Assembly: GCF_009914755.1 (NCBI RefSeq) | Contig: NC_060932.1 | Source of the DNA: the human T2T-CHM13v2.0 reference genome, Homo sapiens | Length of the DNA: 64,000 nt | Reading direction: 5' to 3' (one strand) | In this document: piece by piece, positions 18,989-47,900 of the stretch | Numbering within the stretch: the first letter of the stretch is position 1 | Layout: every line of letters begins with the position of its first letter | Notes under the pieces: generated by a model | What the model saw: only the letters and a program-made list of their open reading frames with translations | Told to the model about the DNA's origin: nothing | Database searches by the model: none | Translations under genes and position numbers: made by a program

Positions 18989-19104
18989 CTTCATAGAAGA
19001 AACGCACTCCGTCGGGAAGGGGCTCGTATGGGGGTGCGAAGTACGGGCCCTTGTGCTCCAGCTGTCTCCACTTCACCCCGTCTTCGTGCTTCTCCTTCTC
19101 CCAC
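18989..19104 (-). CDS. TOP1MT: TOP1MT exon 2
   Basis: tttag|G TGG... encodes [38 protein letters not shown]; donor G|gtaag; 116 nt. Confidence 0.97.
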
Positions 19105-21243: not shown

Positions 21244-22299
21244 ACTGACAGTGACCCTGACTGCCAAGTCCTTCACAAAGCCTCTAGGGTAGTCACATCA
21301 CCAGTCTCATTTCACAGATGAAGACACTGAGGTGAAACAACCTGCCGGCCAGCGGCCAGGCAGGGCTGCACCACTGGGTGTGCGCTCAAGCCCAACTGAG
21401 GGCTGCACATTGTAGTGACATTCTTTCACCCCTGCAGAGACCAGGGCACCAAGCACCACCATCAGACACAAGCTGGCTTTCAAAGCCAGAGACCTTGCTC
21501 CAAACCCACCTGTCCACCTGGGCGACTGCAGCTCAGCAGCACTTTTTGGAAAGCACCTACCTGCCTGTGCACCCTCGGAGAGATGTGCCTCAATGCAGGG
21601 CCCACAGCCAGCCCCAGCTCCAAGCGCAGGCCAGAACTCCCTCCTCCCAAGACACCCTGCCCCATCTGGGGCTCTCTTTGGGTCCCAAGCTCCTGCAGGC
21701 AGACAAGACATTTCTGCAGCATGGCCTTAGGCAGCTGTGCAGGCCCTCAGCTGTGAATGGGTATGCTGATAGCGCACCACCAGGTCACAGAGACATGCCA
21801 CGCTGGAAGCACTAAGTGAATGATGATAAACCGCGAGACCTGGCGGGAACTCCTGCAGGATCTCCCACGCACCAGTGAGGCTGTCAACTCTCCAGCTCTT
21901 CGGAAACTCCAGCATTTCATGCGCAGAGACCCATCCCCATGCGGCTACCCCAGGCCCAGTATGCGCCGGCAGGGCTTCTCACATGTCCTCCAGGAAAGCG
22001 CCTGGGACCACCAACGGCCACCAGGGCCACTGGATCCATGCGGCTTGTGCCTGGTGATGTAGATATGACAGTGAGCGCCCGCCGCCATGCAGAATCGGTC
22101 CTGGAGACAACCCGGGAACCGACTCCAGGAAAGAGCGGGTCTCAGAAGACCATGCACAGCAACATAAGCTTTTTATAAAGTACCTAACCAAACCCTACAG
22201 TGTTGAGGCCCAGGCACAGCTACACAAATGATGAAACCACAAGCGGAAAAAAAGAGGGGAGATTTCCCCAAATAGGGTTGGTGGGGTGGTGCCTGGGGA

Positions 22300-22790
22300 A
22301 GCAAGGGCGACGTCATGGGGGGGCCTGTACACCCCGGGCAGGAGGCGGGCCGGTCACACCGCGGCACGCATGCTCTCCTGGCCCGACTTTTGGGAAAACC
22401 GGAAGCAGGGCAAGGCCGTCCCACGAGGCCTGCCACTCCCCTTTCTGGACCTACCCAAGCCCGGTGCTCAGGGCCCTCGCCGCCTGCTCACTGGGACACC
22501 TTACCTGGCTCCACTGCCCTTCTGCGTCCTGCGCGAGCCCGGGACACCCCGGGAGGCCGGGCGGCGGGGGACCTCCCCGAGCAGCGTCAGAGCCGCCCGG
22601 AGCCGCAGCAGCCGCACCACGCGCATCTGCCAGCCTCCGGGAAAGGGCGACAAGCTGGGCCCCGCCCCAGCGGCCAGCCCCGCCCCGCCCCCAGCGGCCA
22701 GCCCCGCCCCCGAGCGCGGCCTCCGCCCCCAGCGGCGCTCATCCCAAGGCTGGGCGGTCTAAGCCTGCACGGGGCTGCGGCAGCAGGACC
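22300..22790 (-). promoter_or_regulatory. TOP1MT: TOP1MT proximal CpG-island promoter with tandem GC boxes
   Basis: CpG-rich; repeated CAGCGGCCAGCCCCGCCCC (GGGGCGGGG on the minus strand, Sp/KLF type) at about 22659-22735, just upstream of the ATG; no TATA seen. Confidence 0.8.
22505..22626 (-). CDS. TOP1MT: TOP1MT coding exon 1 (mitochondrial targeting peptide, aa 1-41)
   Basis: ATG at 22626 gives MRVVRLLRLRAALTLLGEVPRRPASRGVPGSRRTQKGSGA(R), an Arg/Leu-rich presequence. Donor AG|GTAAG, 122 nt, phase 2. Lies in a CpG island. Confidence 0.96.
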
Positions 22791-26949: not shown

Positions 26950-27330
26950 CACACTGCAAAAGAAACAGTGACTTTGACCTTAACAATATACTTAATTTCA
27001 ACTATTTCAACCAAAATACTGTCATTCAACATAATATGCTAATGCGATGGTATGCATCGTTCTTCTCAAAGCAGGCGTGCGTATCACACCCCCAGCACAT
27101 CTCCACTGGGAGAGCTGCGCAGCTCGTGGCTGCGTACAGGACACAGCAGGGGTGACGGCTACAACTGCAGTGTGGCCCACTTGTGGCCATGTGACCTTGG
27201 CCCGGTTACTTAACCTTTTTGTACCTCAGTTTCCTCATCTGAAAAATGGACATAGCAGTACCTACTTCATAGAGGACTGACCAAAAGCAATGCCAGACAC
27301 ACAGCAAACACTCACTTACTGCTGGCTGCT
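26950..27330. mobile_element. Degenerate MER DNA-transposon remnant followed by a MIR
   Basis: MIR core tgtgaccttggcccggttacttaacc...cctcagtttcctcatctgaaaaatgg at about 27189-27250; the MER3/MER33-like portion is weaker. Confidence 0.55.
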
Positions 27331-27434
27331 CCCAGTACCCTACAACCCACAGCTCAAAGCTGCCGATGCAAGAGGGCACTCTGGGGGGCACCCAGGCTCC
27401 CTGGCAACCTACAGTGGGCAGGCAAAGGCCAGCA

Positions 27435-27990
27435 CTGTAGCATTCCCACATTCCCAGCACTGGTCTACACAGCACTCCCCGCCTCCCCCACCAGGGACAG
27501 GGAGGGGAAGTGGGCCTGTGCTGGTCTAAACTGCATTCCCCTGCTCCCAGCGCTGATCTACACAGCATTCCACCCCTGCCAGCACTGGTCTACACAGCAT
27601 TCCCCCCGTCCCAGCACTGGTCTACACAGCATTCCCCCACTCCCAGCACTGGTCTACACAGCATTCCCCCCGTCCCAGCACTGGTCTACACAGCATTACC
27701 CCACTCCCAGCACTGGTCTACACAGCATTCCCCCGTCCCAGCACTGGTCTACACAGCATTCCCCCACTCCCAGCACTGGTCTACACAGCATTCCCCCGTC
27801 CCAGCACTGGTCTACACAGCATTCCCCCGTCCCAGCACTGGTCTACACAGCATTCCCCCACTCCCAGCACTGGTCTACACAGCATTCCCCCACTCCCAGC
27901 ACTGGTCTACACAGCATTCCCCCCCTCCCAGCACCGGTCTGCACAGCATTCCCCCACTCCCAGCACTGGTCTACACAGCATTCCCACCAC
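27435..27990. repeat. 31-33-bp VNTR, roughly 15 copies
   Basis: Unit cccagcactggtctacacagcattccccc(ac/g)t. Confidence 0.95.
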
Positions 27991-28036
27991 CCCGTCAGGA
28001 CATGGAGGGAGAGAAGGGGTGGGGTAGGGTACACAC

Positions 28037-29047
28037 CATTTCCACCTGCTGCCTTCGGCCTTCTCCCACCCTTTCTGGCTCTCCTCCTGTGGCTTAGCTG
28101 CCTCCTGGCCATCTTTCTTCTCTCCCTCTGGACACCCCAGCATCAACTGGCTCCCCCTCCTTCCACTTCTCTCTGCTTCTGGCTGGCTTCCGGCTGCCCT
28201 GAGCTTTCTCTTCTTGGGGCTTCTTCACCAGGCCCCCCACCTCCCAGTCACCCTTTGCCCCAGGGCAATGGCGAGGCCACGCCGCTGGCTGTGGTGCCCC
28301 GTCCAGCTCACTCCCACACTGCACTTCTCTGTCTTCCTCCAGGTCCTGAGCTTTTCATTTCTTTGGTTTTCGAGTCCCCTCTTCCCCAGCTTTGTCTGTC
28401 TCCCTCTTCTTTTCTTTTCTGGAAACCAAGGCCTCCTGTCCCACTTTTGTGCCACTACCTAATTTGTCACTTTCTTCTTTCTTGGTTTTTCCCACCCACA
28501 CTTCTTTTACATCCTCGTCCTCGTTCTGTGCTTGTCTCCTGGCCCGTAACTCTCCTTTCTGCTCAGTGTGGCCCTGGCTCGTCCTCCGTGCTGGGGTGGG
28601 CACCATGCCCTCACTGTGCACCTGCTCCTGGCCACGCTTCGCACCTCTTCTGTGGGAACTGCTCTGTCTATCCCACTGCCCAGAGCGCGCTCCTCCCCAG
28701 CTCCCACGGCGGCCCCTGCACTCTTCCGCTCCCCACAGCTGAGGGTCTCAGGCTTGCCCCTAGCGTCCCCGCCACCCTCTTCTCGTGCTGCCGCCCCAGT
28801 GCATCTCCCCACACGTTTGTCCTGAAGCCCTTTCTCCCCTTTCTCTTCGGATATTCTTTTTTTTTTCTCAGTTTGTGCCTCTCTTCCACACAGCCCTTGC
28901 CCCGGCCAGTGTCTGTGAGCTCACAGTCCAGGTCCTCTTCCAGAGCCCCCTTCCGGCTGGGCACCGCCTGCAGGGCCATGCCCTTCTATCTCTTCTCTTG
29001 GGTGTCAGGACCCCGGGCACATCCACCAAGGGCCATCTTCATCTTGT
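28037..29047 (-). pseudogene. Decayed coding exon resembling the charged N-terminal domain of nuclear TOP1 (relic upstream TOP1MT exon)
   Basis: Purine-rich on the minus strand. K/E-rich peptides lie in shifting frames, with 2 stops and about 3 inferred frameshifts. The last frame reads RSPKKRKL...KPQEESQKGWEKAEGSRWK-TG|gtgtgt, a phase-2 donor compatible with exon 2. Acceptor ttcctgcag|AC at 29047. Confidence 0.6.
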
Positions 29048-29168
29048 CTGCAGGAACCTCCGTGTGGCCTTGGGACCTTGCCCAGAACAGAGAGCACACA
29101 CCATGAGAGGGGCCACAGGGCCACAAACATACCCACCCGGAGACCCCAGAGGAGGAGGGAAGGTTCAC

Positions 29169-30776: not shown

Positions 30777-33700
30777 TAAGCATTCATCAGGCATGAGTGC
30801 CTGGGAAGTTGCTTATCAGAATCATGTTCACACATTCATTTCCTATTTAAGATGCCGACTTGGCCTTTTTTCTTGGGTGGCTTTTCATGGTGATTAGTCT
30901 TCACTGGCGTGGTGATCTGTGCAAATCTAGAATTCAAATGTATACATAAACATGCAGCTCTGCGGCTCATTTAGGGTTGCCATTCTAACAACAGAGAGTC
31001 AGAACAACCTCATGGAAGCCTCCCAAGCTCTTCATGACCCTTTTCTCATTTTTCAAAAGTACACCTGGCAAAGCTGCTGGTGACCCACGTGCTGGGCATC
31101 AAGGAACCTCTGACTCTGAGCACAGCACCAGCTGGCGGTGGGAAGTCCCGCCCGAGGCCAGAAGCTGCGAACACATCTCAGGCCCCTCCCGGCCTCGGGA
31201 AGAGTGGGCAGGCAGTAAAAGGCAGCTCCCAGGTCCCCTCTGGGACCATCTCTGTCCCCACCAACACCACGGCAGTTCAGAGATCATCAATTTGGAAAAA
31301 CAGTCTTTCCAAAGTAACTTTTGAAGAAGAAGTGTGAGAAAATATATTCAGAAACAAAACCCACATTGAACAGAGAGAGGAACAGACACTTCGCTTAAGT
31401 GGGAATGGCACGGGGCCCACCTCGGGCTGCACGCTGGGTCAGAGGCGCCATCCCTGGGAACCCCGAGGAGGTTATGGGGGCACCAGGCACCCCGGTCTGA
31501 ACGCTCCCACTCATCGGCTGACTGGCCACCCTCACCCACACCTCACACTATGGCTGCTCTCACTCCACCATCTGACCATCACAACACACGCCCACATCCA
31601 TGCAGACTGGAGACACAGTGAAACACGCGTCTTGCAAGGAAAAACCTGTGAGATTTCTGAAAATCATGTTAGAGCCCTACTGAGGCAGAGGCCTGGGCCA
31701 GCCGAGAAAGGTGAGAGGAGGCCCTGTTGTAACACAGCTGGAAAGCAGGATTCATAGATGGATTTCATGTGGAATCTAGGCCCTCAAGGATGGGGCCCTC
31801 AAAGATGACACCAAGGTCTGTGCTTGAGAAGACAGAAGGAGCCGCTTCACCGAAACGAGAGGACTAGGGAGGGAAGGGCAGCAGACACCCACGGTCCTCT
31901 CAGGATGTGCTGACTGCAGAGGCCTAGAGTCCCACAGGGAAGCCGTGGGAGGCCCCCTCTGCCCCAGCCCAGCTCAGCCCTCCTGCTTGAGGAAGAAGGA
32001 GTGGCGGGACACCAGAGGGACAGGCTAGGAAGCACTCAGTAGCAGTGGCAGGAGCTCAGGAGGCTTTGGGCTGGCCCTGAGACACCACCACCCACTGGCC
32101 AGCAGCAGCTGGTCCTCCAGGTCTCCGTGACTCCCCCAGCCCCATGCCCACCCAGGATACAAAGGCAAGCCTCCCCACTCCCCAGCCACTCCCTTACTCA
32201 GTGAGGACCCAGGGCTGCTCACTGTGCCACCCGCCCGCCGCGCAGCACCATTCCCCAGCTACAGGGACAGCTGATGGTCACACAGACCCCACAGCGATCT
32301 CTGTCACTCCCAGACGCCGCCTCCCCAGTAACCCCTGTTGTGGGGGTGTAGACGGAGAGGCGCAGACACTGTCCTGTCAACAAGCCAGGCTCCATGTTGT
32401 CCGTAAGTCCAGGGCCCAGCACCTAAGGGTGATTAACTGGCAAGGACACCAAACAGCGGAGGAGGAGGGACCTCAGCTGAGCGAGATGAGCGACAGTGAA
32501 CAAGGCCAGGCAGGAGACAGAATGGATGGGCGTCAAGGGAGGAGCCACCCAGCACCTGGAGAGCAGCTGTGGTCACAGGCACGAATTCATCACAGCCACA
32601 GTCATCAGCACGGGCTGCAGTCTGGGGTAGAAAAATCAGAAGGAAGGAAACGTTAAAGTTTTAAGCAATAAGAGACCCAGGGGCCGTGTTAAAAGGTAAC
32701 TCATTCTCTACCTCATCCCAACTCAATGACACAATCCTGGCTCCACCTGGGCCAGCACAGGGGCTTGTAAAAGAGTATGCATGGGAGACTCCCCATAGAC
32801 AGGTCCCAGTCCCCGGACACAGACACGTACCACACTGCAGGCACCAGCCAGTCCTTCCCGAGGAGCTTACCCTCACTGGGCAGAGCCACGCACTGAGGGG
32901 CAGAGCCCACAAGCCCACTGGCAGCCGAGGTCACCCCCATGCCTGACCTGGCAGAGCCCTGCAGGAGGCAGGTCCACAGGGCATCCCTGGTGGCTGAAAG
33001 GTCTGAACCAGCACTGGGCACAGGAGCCCAGCAATGCCAGCCCGAGGCGTCTGCTGGTCTCCGGAGGACACAGTTGCAAACTCGACACAGACACAGAGAA
33101 GCAGGCTGGCCCCTCCAGCTCCTGCTGCCACGCGCGGCTGGGAGGTGTCACTCACACCCCACGTGGAACAGGGCCTCTCGGGCTATACTCCCACACCTCT
33201 GGCTGGCACTTCAGCAGAGAGTTTTTCACTGTTTTAAATTAAAATACAGATAAGGCTTGCATTAATTTAGTAGAAAAGTTTAGCGCCAACTCAGGGCTTT
33301 CATAAATTATAGAAGAATACATTACATAGTACCAGAACACAGAGAAGAGATAAAGTAATTCACACTTAAACTATACTGATGAAGTCAGTCATCAGTAAAA
33401 TGGCAAAATCCAAATCATCGACACTTTTTCTAAATTGAAGTCCCACAAAGCATTTACTATTGCATTGCTTTTCAAACAAACCGTTATCTAACAACCCACT
33501 GTTAATGGGGTAGACTGTGGAGGGTCTGATTCTGCCCTATCAGCACATCCGCAGGAAACACCTGCAGAAATCATCACCAGGGAGATGCCGGGGGCAGGGG
33601 TGATGGTCGAGTGTGTGTGGACATGTCTGTATTCTGAGTGTGGCAGTGGCTTTCCAGAGGGACACTTCTGCCACAACTCATCCAATGGTCACTGTCAACG

Positions 33701-43597: not shown

Positions 43598-43668
43598 CCA
43601 ACAGTAAGATTGTCCCGCCCTGGATTTTCTTTTGAAACGGAGAATTTATTTTCTTCCCTCAAGCACTG
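43598..43668 (-). other. Candidate non-coding upstream TOP1MT exon
   Basis: Pyrimidine tract ccctgttctcttgtgacttatag| and donor TGG|gtaagg in non-repeat sequence, on the TOP1MT strand, downstream of the distal CpG island. Confidence 0.45.
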
Positions 43669-45735: not shown

Positions 45736-46623
45736 TAAATAAATAAAAATGAAACATTCACAGTAAATAAAAGGCTGGAACCTGGTCTTCGCCCTGTCTT
45801 CCCTGATTTTTATGCTTTGGCTTCTTCACTTTGAGCTTCTTTGCATTTTCCAGCCTTATCTGCCCAGTACTCTCTCTCTTCCTTTAATCAAAGAAATACG
45901 CTCCTGTAACTCCAAAGAAGAAACGGCAACACCAGTGCCAAAATGATGTTTTTGACAGGAAGAAACATAAACTTCACAGGAAAGCAGTGACATCACGCCC
46001 CTCCCATTCCTCCCCTGTTCTGATCCTGGGCTGTGGTTCAGACAGGACCTACAGCCCAGACAGCTCCTTCCACCCCATTCTCTACCATTGTAGTGATGAG
46101 GTTAGACCCGAATGTTACAAGAGCTGGGCAAGCAGGTGAAGCACCCCCAGCAACAAAATCCATCATCATAAACATGCAAAGGCCACTGCTTCCCAAAAGT
46201 ATTTGCTACCTCTTGAGAGCAACTTTATCATCCACTGGCAACTGCTTCAAATTGGGCCCCGACTGTCTCCCATCACCTATCTGCAACTGAGTGTCCCCAC
46301 CTGCAAGAAAACACACACGTCTCCAGGGCCCTGGGGTGAGCAGCAGGACCGTTCCACAGAGGTGAGCCTGGACCCAGGCAGCAGGGACACTGCTGCACCT
46401 GCGGCTGGAGTGACACCGAAAACACAGCAGCAGCTGAGAGGGCAGGAGAGGCAACCGGCCACGAGCCTCTGTTGGCTCCAACCACCAAAGGATGGTGCTT
46501 ATTCCTGACCCCATTACTACGCAACCAGGCTCACTAGAAAGTTTCCATTAGCCGGTCTGGAGCATATTCCTGGGTGTGATATGCCATCATGTTCATGTTT
46601 TTTAAATCACTATTAAGTAAAGC

Positions 46624-46773: not shown

Positions 46774-47329
46774 CTTAAGTAGACTATTTTGAATGCTGCA
46801 TAGAGACTCCCCTGAAAATAGCCTGTTCTTGGGTTTTAGCTGGGAGCTTATGGCTTTAGATGCGCCAGACCAAAAGAAAAAAAAACAGCTGCAAACCTGA
46901 GGTGTTACAAGGTGGCTGCCAGCAAAGCGATCCAGGAGAAGGGAGGCAGGTCACCACGCCAGGAGAAGAGAAGGGCAGGGAAAAGGCCAACTCCGGGAAG
47001 AAAGGCCCTGGGGCAAAGCGCATCCAAAGCCGTCACTCTGGGGCAGAAGACAGAGCGGAATCCCATCAGCGACGGCCGTTTCCAGACCCTTTTCCTAGGC
47101 AGCCAGACCGGCACCGCTGGCCAGGTGCAGGGCCCAAGCAGAAAGTCAGGAGCCAAGGGAGCGATGAGGAGGGGTGGGGCAGCCAGGGGAGAGGACACCG
47201 AGCGGGAGGGGTAAGCGAAGGGGGAAGAGAACAAGGGGGCCTGGAGGGGGGACACAAAAGGAGGGCCCATGGAGATGGAGGAAACACTGAGGGGTGAAGC
47301 ACACGGAGGGGGGACACAGAGGAGGAGGG

Positions 47330-47900
47330 GACACGTTGGTGGCGTCGTGCGCGGAGGGGGAGGTACACGGAGGAGTCGCGGAGAGGCGAGGGATGTGGGA
47401 GGTCGTCACCAACAGCGCGACCTGGGTCACCCACAGGAAGAGGGCCACTGAGGGCCCCGCCTGACCCCTCCCTCCTGGTGGCCCTGCGCCCTCAGGCCGA
47501 GTCCCACCTCCTCTGCAGCTCTTCCAGGACCCACGCGGTCCCACCGCACCACGGCTCCCCCGGACCCCGCTTCCCCGAGGCCTGCGCGGAGACGCCGGGA
47601 AGGCCCGAGCCCGCGCATGCGCAGCCGCCGCCACGTGCCTGCCTTGACGCCGCCGGTGCTGCCGGGAAGGGGGCGGGCTGCGCAGGCGCGGGAGAGGCCC
47701 ACGCGGTGGCCACGCGGGGCGTCCGGTGGCTGCGCTCGGTTGGGCCCCTGGGCTCGCGCGCTCCGTGGGCCGCGGTGCTGACGGGCACCCAGGAGGTGGG
47801 GTGGGAGGCGGCCGGCCGGGGTGGAGGGGCGTTCCTGGGCCGACGTGCTGTTGGCTTCCGCGACGTGGTGGAGTCTCGCCAGTCCCTGCAGCGCTTCTGC
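47330..47900 (-). promoter_or_regulatory. Distal CpG island, probable alternative TOP1MT promoter; NRF1 site and E-box
   Basis: CpG-dense with no convincing CDS; GCGCATGCGCA at 47613-47623; CACGTG at 47632-47637; candidate donor GAG|gtggga at 47508. I recall that TOP1MT has long transcripts starting about 25 kb upstream of exon 1. Confidence 0.65.

What the first reader, a model, noticed from the sequence alone, without database searches (positions are those of the whole stretch)
28037..28227. Hidden upstream exon end that would restore the nuclear TOP1 WKWW motif and an SV40-type NLS onto TOP1MT
Seen: on the TOP1MT strand, the frame after TGA 28227-28225 is open and reads RSPKKRKLRAAGSQPEAERSGRRGSQLMLGCPEGEKKDGQEAAKPQEESQKGWEKAEGSRWK, then TG|GTGTGT at 28037. 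Exon 2 starts with a single G then TGG, so this splice gives ...[16 protein letters not shown]. Established: nuclear TOP1 reads KKRKL...KPKKEEEQKWKWWEEERYPEGIKW here, and W205 matters for controlled rotation. TOP1MT is described as sharing the last 13 exons with TOP1 and replacing the N-terminal domain with a targeting-peptide exon. Inference: this is the relic equivalent of the last TOP1 N-terminal exon, so the locus once encoded (and in other species may still encode) both nuclear- and mitochondria-targeted topoisomerase IB from alternative 5' exons. An in-frame ATG at 28143 could still give a 36-aa non-mitochondrial N-terminus, although it lies downstream of the NLS.
Basis: partly seen in the sequence, partly recalled or inferred. 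Interest (0 to 1): 0.9.

Follow-up and report, generated by a model that had tools for sequence, protein, structure and literature searches.

The report
Dead exon of a lost TOP1MT form
The stretch is the decayed tail of an old exon showing that the human "mitochondrial" topoisomerase I gene once also made a long, nuclear-topoisomerase-like protein, a form that gene predictions suggest many other vertebrates still make.

Summary
On the TOP1MT strand, the frame after TGA 28227-28225 is open, reads ...GSRWK, and ends TG|GTGTGT at 28037. Spliced to exon 2 (G TGG...) it would give WKWW.

Similarity to TOP1 exon 8 alone is not above composition. Orthologues settle the question. Predicted long TOP1MT isoforms of donkey, rhino, pig, colugo, anteater, marsupials, monotremes, reptiles, birds, amphibians and fishes carry a 340-930-residue charged N-terminal domain. 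It ends W[KR]WW just before the core in 54 of 55.

Their N-domains map colinearly onto the human window as five relic exons: 46280-46210, 45881-45782, 43668-43598, 30926-30860 and 29076-28037. The finding is the 3' end of the last one.

In human the long form is dead:
- The start codon is ATA.
- The big exon needs 4-5 frameshifts and has an in-frame stop at 28357-28355.
- Only the last ~26 codons keep the ancestral frame.

The "SV40-type NLS" PKKRKL is out of that frame, so it is a by-product of purine-rich DNA. No primate protein listed carries the motif.

The parts
28037..28117 (-). Last ~26 codons of relic exon E5r, still in the ancestral frame (KDGQEAAKPQEESQKGWEKAEGSRWK + TG). GT donor at 28036-28035. 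This is the core of the finding.
   Evidence: The colugo, donkey and anteater alignments all run in this frame from about 28117-28105 to 28037. Colugo ends ...KTDGSRWRWW.
28118..28227 (-). It is out of the ancestral frame, which here reads GGLVKKPQEEKAQGSRKPARSREKWKEGEPVDAGVSRGRE.
   Evidence: all 4 alignments use the other frame across 28218-28201; the rhino alignment switches at 28150, the other three at 28117-28105. (ORF 28094-28354).
28037..29076 (-). Relic exon E5r: the large last exon of the ancestral N-terminal domain (1040 nt = 346 codons + 2). Acceptor ...ctctctgttctgggcaag|GTC. Broken by an in-frame stop at 28357-28355, a second stop at 28988-28986 in the colugo alignment, and frameshifts near 29055, 28942-28849, 28670-28658 and 28150-28105.
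   Evidence: tblastn E 4e-21 colugo, 2e-23 anteater. (with composition correction and SEG: 7.6e-15 and 4e-12; reversed controls best 0.46).. (5, 9 and 6 stops in the three frames).
30860..30926 (-). Relic exon E4r (FAQITTPVKTNHHEKPPKKKGQ). Open. Acceptor ttctag|A. Donor CAA|GTCGGC.
   Evidence: 75-76% identity to donkey and rhino; E 6.7e-7 with composition correction.
43598..43668 (-). Relic exon E3r (QCLREENKFSVSKENPGRDNLTV + GG). Open. Acceptor cttatag|CAG. Donor GG|GTAAGG.
   Evidence: 61-65% identity; E 3e-5 to 4e-6.
45782..45881 (-). Relic exon E2r (KRESTGQIRLENAKKLKVKKPKHKNQGRQGEDQ). Open. It holds the basic cluster that reads SKKRKVKE in donkey.
   Evidence: 62% identity to donkey; E 1e-9 without composition correction, 0.033 with it.
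46210..46280 (-). Relic first coding exon E1r (IGDGRQSGPNLKQLPVDDKVALK + AG). ATA at 46280-46278 where donkey, rhino and colugo have the start Met (MGDG...).
   Evidence: weak alone, E 0.09-0.9, 48-54% identity, but colinear with the other relics.
22505..22645 (-). Annotated exon 1 (mitochondrial targeting peptide). It lies inside the intron between E5r and exon 2, so it is an alternative first exon.
   Evidence: Hub table.
18989..19104 (-). Exon 2, first of the 13 shared exons. Starts G TGG.

Best explanation
The segment is the 3' end of a decayed exon, here called E5r (29076-28037, minus strand). It was the last and largest exon of an ancestral TOP1MT N-terminal domain.

Ancestral layout (inferred): an upstream promoter drove five coding exons, E1 to E5. 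They encoded a long, highly charged, non-mitochondrial-looking N-terminal domain ending W-K-W. The last Trp codon was split TG|G onto exon 2, exactly as in TOP1 exon 8/9. A second promoter inside the E5-exon 2 intron drove the targeting-peptide exon (today's exon 1), which splices to the same exon 2. One gene therefore gave a TOP1-like long enzyme and the mitochondrial enzyme.

Shown: many vertebrates still have both predicted forms. In the Tasmanian devil the two are identical from the junction onward.

Shown for human: the long form is dead. The start codon is ATA, and E5r has at least one in-frame stop and 4-5 frameshifts. The small exons E1r-E4r and the last ~26 codons with the GT donor of E5r are still readable.

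Inferred: the long form is nuclear. The loss predates the human/Old World monkey split. The human RefSeq 5' exons at 47.6 and 47.0 kb are vestiges of the old promoter.
For: (1) Colinear homology. N-domains of donkey, colugo, anteater and rhino long isoforms hit, in order on the minus strand, 46280-46209, 45883-45782, 43668-43600, 30931-30857, 29082-28036 and then exon 2 at 19103. With composition-based statistics and SEG on, E values are 7.6e-15 (colugo) and 4e-12 (anteater) for E5r, 6.7e-7 for E4r and 3e-5 for E3r. The five reversed-sequence controls gave nothing better than 0.46.

(2) The end matches residue by residue: human ...EPVDAGVSRGRE / KDGQEAAKPQEESQKGWEKAEGSRWKW against colugo ...EPVGAGVSSGNEKKVDQEGERGQQKTDGSRWRWW.

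(3) W[KR]WW precedes the core in 54 of 55 long vertebrate forms in which my core pattern was found; 57 were examined and 2 had no pattern match. The one exception looks like a retained intron.

(4) The tetrapod long forms cluster with primate TOP1MT and apart from TOP1 (quick tree, SH-aLRT 92 for the 22-row clade).

(5) Same gene, two 5' ends: the Tasmanian devil long and short forms are 512 of 512 identical from the junction onward.

(6) The intact open frames are not chance. The human E5r strand is A30/G40/C19/T10, which predicts 12 stops per 345 codons, and the human frames have 5, 9 and 6.

(7) An unnamed 7,582-nt contig encodes 1399 uninterrupted residues that are 88% identical to the newt long form, so it looks like a transcript.

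(8) Same intron phase as TOP1.

(9) A mouse long-read preprint reports capped Top1mt transcripts from promoters upstream of the known one, in podocytes and maturing sperm cells, that replace the coding first exon (passages only).
Against: All long isoforms are database predictions. I saw no protein-level or localisation evidence and no DNA of other species, so dN/dS and the shared-mutation test could not be run.

The eutherian N-domain evolves almost as fast as the dead human copy. Human versus colugo is 141 of 319 aligned codons; donkey versus colugo is 42%. Constraint there is therefore mainly on the open frame and on composition.

Frameshift positions depend on my own aligner and differ by species: 28117, 28110/28105 or 28150.

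The N-domain upstream of WKWW shows no significant similarity to TOP1's N-domain (best E 0.051 in 6 pairs). Homology with TOP1 exon 8 therefore rests on position, phase and the motif only.

Fish and shark long forms were not resolved as TOP1MT or TOP1 in the quick tree.

Absence of primate, rodent, carnivore, bat and ruminant long forms is absence from listed database rows, not from genomes.
Confidence: 0.87

Rival explanations
1. Chance resemblance. A purine-rich, low-complexity intron stretch happens to read K/E/R-rich peptide and WK-TG|GT.
For: The motif TGGAARTGGT is expected 0.49 times per window and was seen twice. Local similarity to the TOP1 exon 8 peptide scores 37, which 326 of 2000 shuffles reach. 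That score ranks 17th of 4205 donor-anchored frames, behind poly-A-derived K runs. There was no PDB hit at E<=10 and no chr20 hit in the whole genome.
Against: Colinear matches of five exons to orthologous N-domains, with E down to 7.6e-15 under composition correction, against 0.46 for reversed controls.
Confidence: 0.02
2. A still-usable cryptic human exon. Transcripts from the upstream promoter include part of E5r, start at ATG 28143 and use the donor at 28037. That would give a non-mitochondrial TOP1MT with a 36-residue N-terminus and a restored WKWW.
For: The frame is open from 28224 to 28037 with an ATG at 28143. GT is kept, with G at -1 and +5. The upstream promoter is still used in human (RefSeq exons 47508-47610 and 46897-47037 in the hub table). 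Old-World-monkey-like cDNA-type records splice E2r and E3r to exon 2.
Against: The exon is not in any of the 17 RefSeq transcripts (hub table). None of the primate-named proteins listed carries W[KR]WW, and the monkey-like records skip E5r. The ATG is out of the ancestral frame. The strand is 10% T and 19% C, so there is little pyrimidine for a nearby acceptor. Inclusion of all of E5r would put 5 stops ahead of the ATG in that frame.
Confidence: 0.06
3. The long isoforms of other species are annotation artefacts, and the human stretch is conserved for another reason such as an enhancer or a non-coding exon.
For: All long forms are automatic predictions. N-domain identity between orders is only 41-49%.
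Against: Open frames of 340-930 codons occur where 12 stops per 345 codons are expected. W[KR]WW is found in 54 of 55. A cDNA-like contig encodes the newt form. The exon phases are consistent in the human relics. Long and short forms share an identical core.
Confidence: 0.05

Closest known systems
Human TOP1 exon 8 / exon 9 junction (chr20)
   Same: The exon ends ...TGG AAA TG|gt and the next exon starts G TGG, giving W-K-W-W. The intron sits after the second base of the same Trp codon. A basic/acidic stretch precedes it. The three clustered Trp residues (203, 205, 206) are said to regulate clamp opening (PMC2770673, passages seen).
   Different: TOP1 exon 8 is 107 nt; the TOP1MT relic exon is 1040 nt. 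There is no significant sequence similarity beyond the motif. TOP1's KKRKL lies in exon 7.
Predicted long TOP1MT isoforms in public protein sets (for example Equus asinus X3 of 1004 aa, Galeopterus X2 of 1003 aa, Sarcophilus X1 of 1143 aa, Xenopus laevis X2 of 1110 aa)
   Same: Orthologous exons, the same order, and the same W[KR]WW end joined to exon 2.
   Different: Their frames are intact and start with Met. The human copy has ATA, stops and frameshifts.
Mouse Top1mt upstream promoters (bioRxiv 10.1101/2025.01.17.633678)
   Same: Capped transcripts from promoters upstream of the known one replace the targeting-peptide exon, in podocytes and maturing sperm cells (passages only).
   Different: In the passages I saw they are called 'de novo' or novel and are not linked to an ancestral N-terminal domain. 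I could not test orthology with the human relics.
Genes that give nuclear and mitochondrial enzymes from alternative 5' exons or start codons (recalled examples: UNG1/UNG2, LIG3, TOP3A)
   Same: One catalytic body with two N-termini that decide the compartment.
   Different: For TOP1MT this is not the textbook view. The papers I read call it exclusively mitochondrial (PMC10081982, passages; PMC12718117, passage). Localisation of the long form is untested.

Membership tests
Last N-terminal-domain exon of the vertebrate TOP1MT long isoform | Lies on the TOP1MT strand between the upstream N-domain exons and exon 2, colinear with orthologous proteins | tested here: met
   hits in order at 46280, 45883, 43668, 30931, 29082-28036 and 19103.
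Last N-terminal-domain exon of the vertebrate TOP1MT long isoform | Significant sequence similarity to orthologous N-domains | tested here: met
   E 7.6e-15 and 4e-12 with composition correction; reversed controls 0.46 or worse.
Last N-terminal-domain exon of the vertebrate TOP1MT long isoform | Ends W-[KR]-W with the Trp codon split TG|G and a GT donor | tested here: met
   54 of 55 long forms have W[KR]WW.
Last N-terminal-domain exon of the vertebrate TOP1MT long isoform | Intact open frame through the exon and a start codon in the first coding exon | tested here: not met
   stop at 28357-28355 in 4 of 4 alignments and 4-5 frameshifts. ATA at 46280-46278.
Homologue of TOP1 exon 8 | Same intron position and phase | tested here: met
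Homologue of TOP1 exon 8 | Sequence similarity above composition | tested here: not met
   (326 of 2000 peptide shuffles reach the score; DNA 32 of 1000). (no chr20 hit). (best E 0.051 in 6 N-domain pairs).
Classical monopartite (SV40-type) NLS at 28218-28201 | Basic cluster K-K/R-x-K/R (consensus recalled) read in the frame the protein uses | tested here: not met
Such clusters are common here.
Classical monopartite (SV40-type) NLS at 28218-28201 | Drives nuclear import | not testable with these tools
   Needs a localisation experiment.
Expressed human exon | Overlap with an annotated transcript exon | tested here: not met
   No exon of the 17 RefSeq transcripts in the hub table overlaps 28037-29076 or the other relics.
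Expressed human exon | Junction reads 28037->19104 | not testable with these tools
   No RNA-seq data were available.

The most novel reading that the evidence does not exclude
In most vertebrates TOP1MT is not a purely mitochondrial gene. From an ancient upstream promoter it also makes a long type IB topoisomerase with a charged, NLS-rich N-terminal domain and the full WKWW clamp motif, which would be a second nuclear or nucleolar TOP1. Primates, and perhaps other eutherian lines, lost it. The upstream TOP1MT transcripts of human and the 'de novo' podocyte and spermatid promoters of mouse are its vestiges.
Probability: 0.45. Interest if true: 0.8.

Novelty: new variant of a known kind. Interest (0 to 1): 0.68.

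Why it matters
The papers I could read describe TOP1MT as a 14-exon gene whose product is exclusively mitochondrial, with a paralogue that swapped the TOP1 N-terminal domain for a targeting peptide. The relic exons in the human gene and the intact long forms elsewhere suggest a different history. On that view the duplicate kept a TOP1-like N-terminal domain and added the targeting-peptide exon as an alternative first exon. Many vertebrates, including pig, horse, chicken relatives and Xenopus, may still have a second non-mitochondrial topoisomerase IB.

This bears on several things:
- How results from human and mouse transfer to other model animals.
- Camptothecin targets in those species.
- The meaning of upstream TOP1MT transcripts in testis and kidney.

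It is directly testable with a GFP fusion and junction reads. For the human genome itself the element is a dead exon with no expected function.

Tried and rejected
(1) Chance resemblance was my first reading. I rejected it.

(2) PDB sequence search with the 62-residue peptide: 0 hits at E<=10.

(3) Whole-genome search with the peptide and with 501 nt of DNA. There was no copy elsewhere, only the neighbouring 32-bp minisatellite repeats itself, and one E 1.14 hit on chr12 with stops.

(4) Word-indexed search with the colugo N-domain found only 3 proteins.

(5) Similarity of N-domains to TOP1 N-domains: no hit better than E 0.051 in 6 pairs.

(6) An ungapped comparison of the Tasmanian devil long and short forms (250 of 511) was an artefact of an offset. 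The proper alignment gives 512 of 512.

(7) The careful tree did not finish in the time allowed. Only the quick tree is reported.

(8) Papers not held: Zhang 2001 (PMC58513), Zhang 2004 (PMC407812) and Zhang 2007, Biochimie, on alternative splicing of human TOP1mt. I saw them only as reference-list entries. The 2007 paper may already describe upstream human exons.

(9) Literature searches for a long, nuclear or dual-targeted TOP1MT form found only the mouse long-read preprint.

Full report
**1. The observation**

The sequence is as described.
- On the minus strand TGA lies at 28227-28225, and the next 62 codons are open. They read RSPKKRKLRAAGSQPEAERSGRRGSQLMLGCPEGEKKDGQEAAKPQEESQKGWEKAEGSRWK, followed by TG|GTGTGT at 28037.
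- Exon 2 begins ag|G TGG GAG AAG..., so the join would read RWK-W-WEKEK.
- The annotated exon 1 ends in the same phase.
- I located TOP1 on chr20 by searching the genome with the exon 2 peptide. Its exon 9 starts G TGG GAA GAA GAG. Its exon 8 is 107 nt, translates to DGKLKKPKNKDKDKKVPEPDNKKKKPKKEEEQKWK, and ends TG|gtaaca.

**2. Is it more than chance? Taken alone, no.**

- The 10-mer TGGAARTGGT occurs twice in the window, against 0.49 expected.
- The best local alignment of the 62-residue peptide to the TOP1 exon 8 peptide scores 37. That score is reached by 326 of 2000 shuffles of the peptide.
- Among 4205 GT-anchored open frames of the window it ranks 17th, behind K runs from poly-A tails.
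- A DNA alignment is marginal (32 of 1000 shuffles) and is driven by the shared GTGGAAATGGT.
- The peptide finds nothing in the PDB at E<=10. In the whole genome it does not find chr20.
- The strand is purine-rich: A 30, G 40, C 19, T 10%. Basic runs are common in all three frames, with 10 runs of 4 or more K/R in 27.9-29.6 kb.

**3. What changed the picture**

A search of the large protein set with the 40-residue exon 3 peptide returned the usual ~600-residue TOP1MT proteins. It also returned proteins named TOP1MT of 900-1150 residues.

A second search, restricted to proteins of 880 residues or more with a macaque TOP1MT as query, listed such long forms from:
- donkey (a cluster of 34 members), rhino, pig, colugo and anteater;
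- four marsupials, platypus and echidna;
- turtles, birds, alligator and lizards;
- frogs, a caecilian and newts;
- eel, gar, sharks and rays.

It listed no primate, rodent, carnivore, bat or ruminant, although a primate would have scored best with that query.

All these proteins have a charged N-terminal domain (K+R 22-28%, D+E 16-27%). In 54 of 55 with a recognisable core, the domain ends W[KR]WW directly before EE..DG.KW. I examined 57; 2 did not match my core pattern, and the one exception looks like a retained intron.

The colugo ends ...EPVGAGVSSGNEKKVDQEGERGQQKTDGSRWRWW. The human segment reads ...GEKKDGQEAAKPQEESQKGWEKAEGSRWKW.

**4. Mapping onto the human window**

tblastn of the N-domains against the window gives colinear hits on the minus strand:
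- 46280-46209 (weak);
- 45883-45782 (62% identity to donkey);
- 43668-43600 (61%);
- 30931-30857 (75-76%);
- 29082-28036;
- then exon 2 at 19103.

With composition-based statistics and SEG on, the large exon still scores E 7.6e-15 (colugo) and 4e-12 (anteater). The small exons score down to 6.7e-7. The five reversed N-domains give nothing better than 0.46.

Reading the flanks gives these exon limits, with consistent phases:

| Relic exon | Coordinates | Notes |
|---|---|---|
| E1r | 46280-46210 | 23 codons + 2 nt |
| E2r | 45881-45782 | 1 nt + 33 codons |
| E3r | 43668-43598 | 23 codons + 2 nt |
| E4r | 30926-30860 | 1 nt + 22 codons; donor GTCGGC |
| E5r | 29076-28037 | 346 codons + 2 nt |

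The finding is the last part of E5r. The annotated targeting-peptide exon (22505-22645) lies inside the intron between E5r and exon 2, so it is an alternative first exon.

**5. State of the human copy**

E1r begins ATA where donkey, rhino and colugo have the start Met.

I wrote a protein-to-DNA aligner that allows frameshifts and ran four orthologues against 29130-28036.
- It needs 4-5 frameshifts, near 29055, 28942-28849, 28670-28658 and 28150-28105.
- It passes an in-frame stop at 28357-28355 in all four alignments.
- It passes a second stop at 28988-28986 in the colugo alignment.
- The three frames of E5r hold 5, 9 and 6 stops.
- Only the last ~26 codons are in the frame that matches the orthologues.
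- Upstream of the last frameshift the matching frame reads GGLVKKPQEEKAQGSRKPARSREKWKEGEPVDAGVSRGRE.

TOP1's own KKRKL is in exon 7, about 3.3 kb upstream of exon 8. The proposed NLS correspondence fails on that count too.

**6. Are the long forms real, and are they TOP1MT?**

- In a quick maximum-likelihood tree of 37 core domains, the 22 tetrapod rows form one clade (SH-aLRT 92). It includes all the tetrapod long forms and the short gorilla, macaque, lemur and guinea-pig TOP1MT. The clade is apart from the TOP1 clade. Fish and shark rows were not resolved, and the careful search did not finish.
- The Tasmanian devil long form and its short, targeting-peptide form are 512 of 512 identical from the junction on. 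One gene gives both.
- From the base composition, 12 stops are expected per 345 codons. Intact frames of this length in many lineages are therefore maintained.
- An unnamed 7,582-nt contig encodes 1399 uninterrupted residues that are 88% identical to the newt long form, which is what a transcript would look like.
- The first 25 residues of 47 long forms hold 2-8 acidic residues (median 4, none with zero). Ten short forms hold 0-1. The long forms therefore do not start like targeting peptides (the property of targeting peptides is recalled).
- E2 carries a basic cluster that reads SKKRKVKE in donkey and AKKLKVKK in the human relic. Nuclear localisation is an inference from this and from the general likeness to the TOP1 N-domain.

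**7. Limits**

- All long forms are automatic predictions.
- I had no DNA of other species, so I could not do dN/dS or a test of shared disruptions.
- Between eutherian orders the N-domain is only 41-49% identical, against 84-88% for the core. That is no better than the dead human copy against colugo (141 of 319). Constraint is therefore on openness and charge rather than on sequence.
- The N-domain has no significant similarity to TOP1's N-domain beyond the motif.

**8. Literature**

- The passages I read call TOP1MT exclusively mitochondrial, with a short N-terminus and 14 exons, the last 13 shared with TOP1 (PMC10081982; PMC12718117).
- PMC2770673 states that the first eight TOP1 exons (residues 1-205) are unique to TOP1, and that Trp203, 205 and 206 matter for the clamp.
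- Five searches for a long, nuclear or dual-targeted form found only a mouse long-read preprint.
- Zhang 2001, Zhang 2004 and the 2007 Biochimie paper on TOP1mt alternative splicing are not held. They may bear on priority.

**9. Verdict**

The NLS, the ATG and the idea of a merely hidden, usable human exon are not supported. In human this is a dead exon. The wider implication, a long non-mitochondrial TOP1MT form in most vertebrates, is the interesting part and remains to be tested.

Noticed in passing
window 27521-27985: A 32-bp minisatellite of 14.6 copies with 91% matches. In minus-strand sense it starts about 50 nt downstream of the relic donor. It is the only part of the region that repeats in the genome search.
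   Followed up: partly
window 27256-29106, + strand: A stop-free frame of 616 codons on the opposite strand. It is a by-product of the CT-rich + strand, not a gene candidate.
   Followed up: partly
window 45877-45782 and 43668-43609 (relic exons E2r, E3r); proteins P0040, P0042, P0043: Unnamed cDNA-like records (contigs of 2.1 kb, 582-620 aa), closest to Old World monkey TOP1MT, splice E2r and E3r straight to exon 2 without the targeting-peptide exon. This gives a ~60-residue N-terminus with KKLKVKKPK. Human has TTG where they have the ATG, and a 2-nt difference just after it.
   Followed up: partly
window 22039-21872, minus strand: The N-terminus of a 618-aa Chlorocebus isoform maps here, overlapping the RefSeq alternative exon 21873-22045. 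Its frame ends ...PHW before exon 2. The human copy has 2 stops in that frame.
   Followed up: no
window 47508-47610 and 46897-47037: The RefSeq alternative 5' exons lie just upstream of relic exon E1r, whose acceptor is ...cttgcag. They may be the untranslated leader exons of the old long-form promoter. This rests on position only and was not tested.
   Followed up: no
window 30860-30858: The donor of relic exon E4r reads CAA|GTCGGC, which looks weak next to E3r's GG|GTAAGG. It may be a further lesion of the human copy.
   Followed up: no
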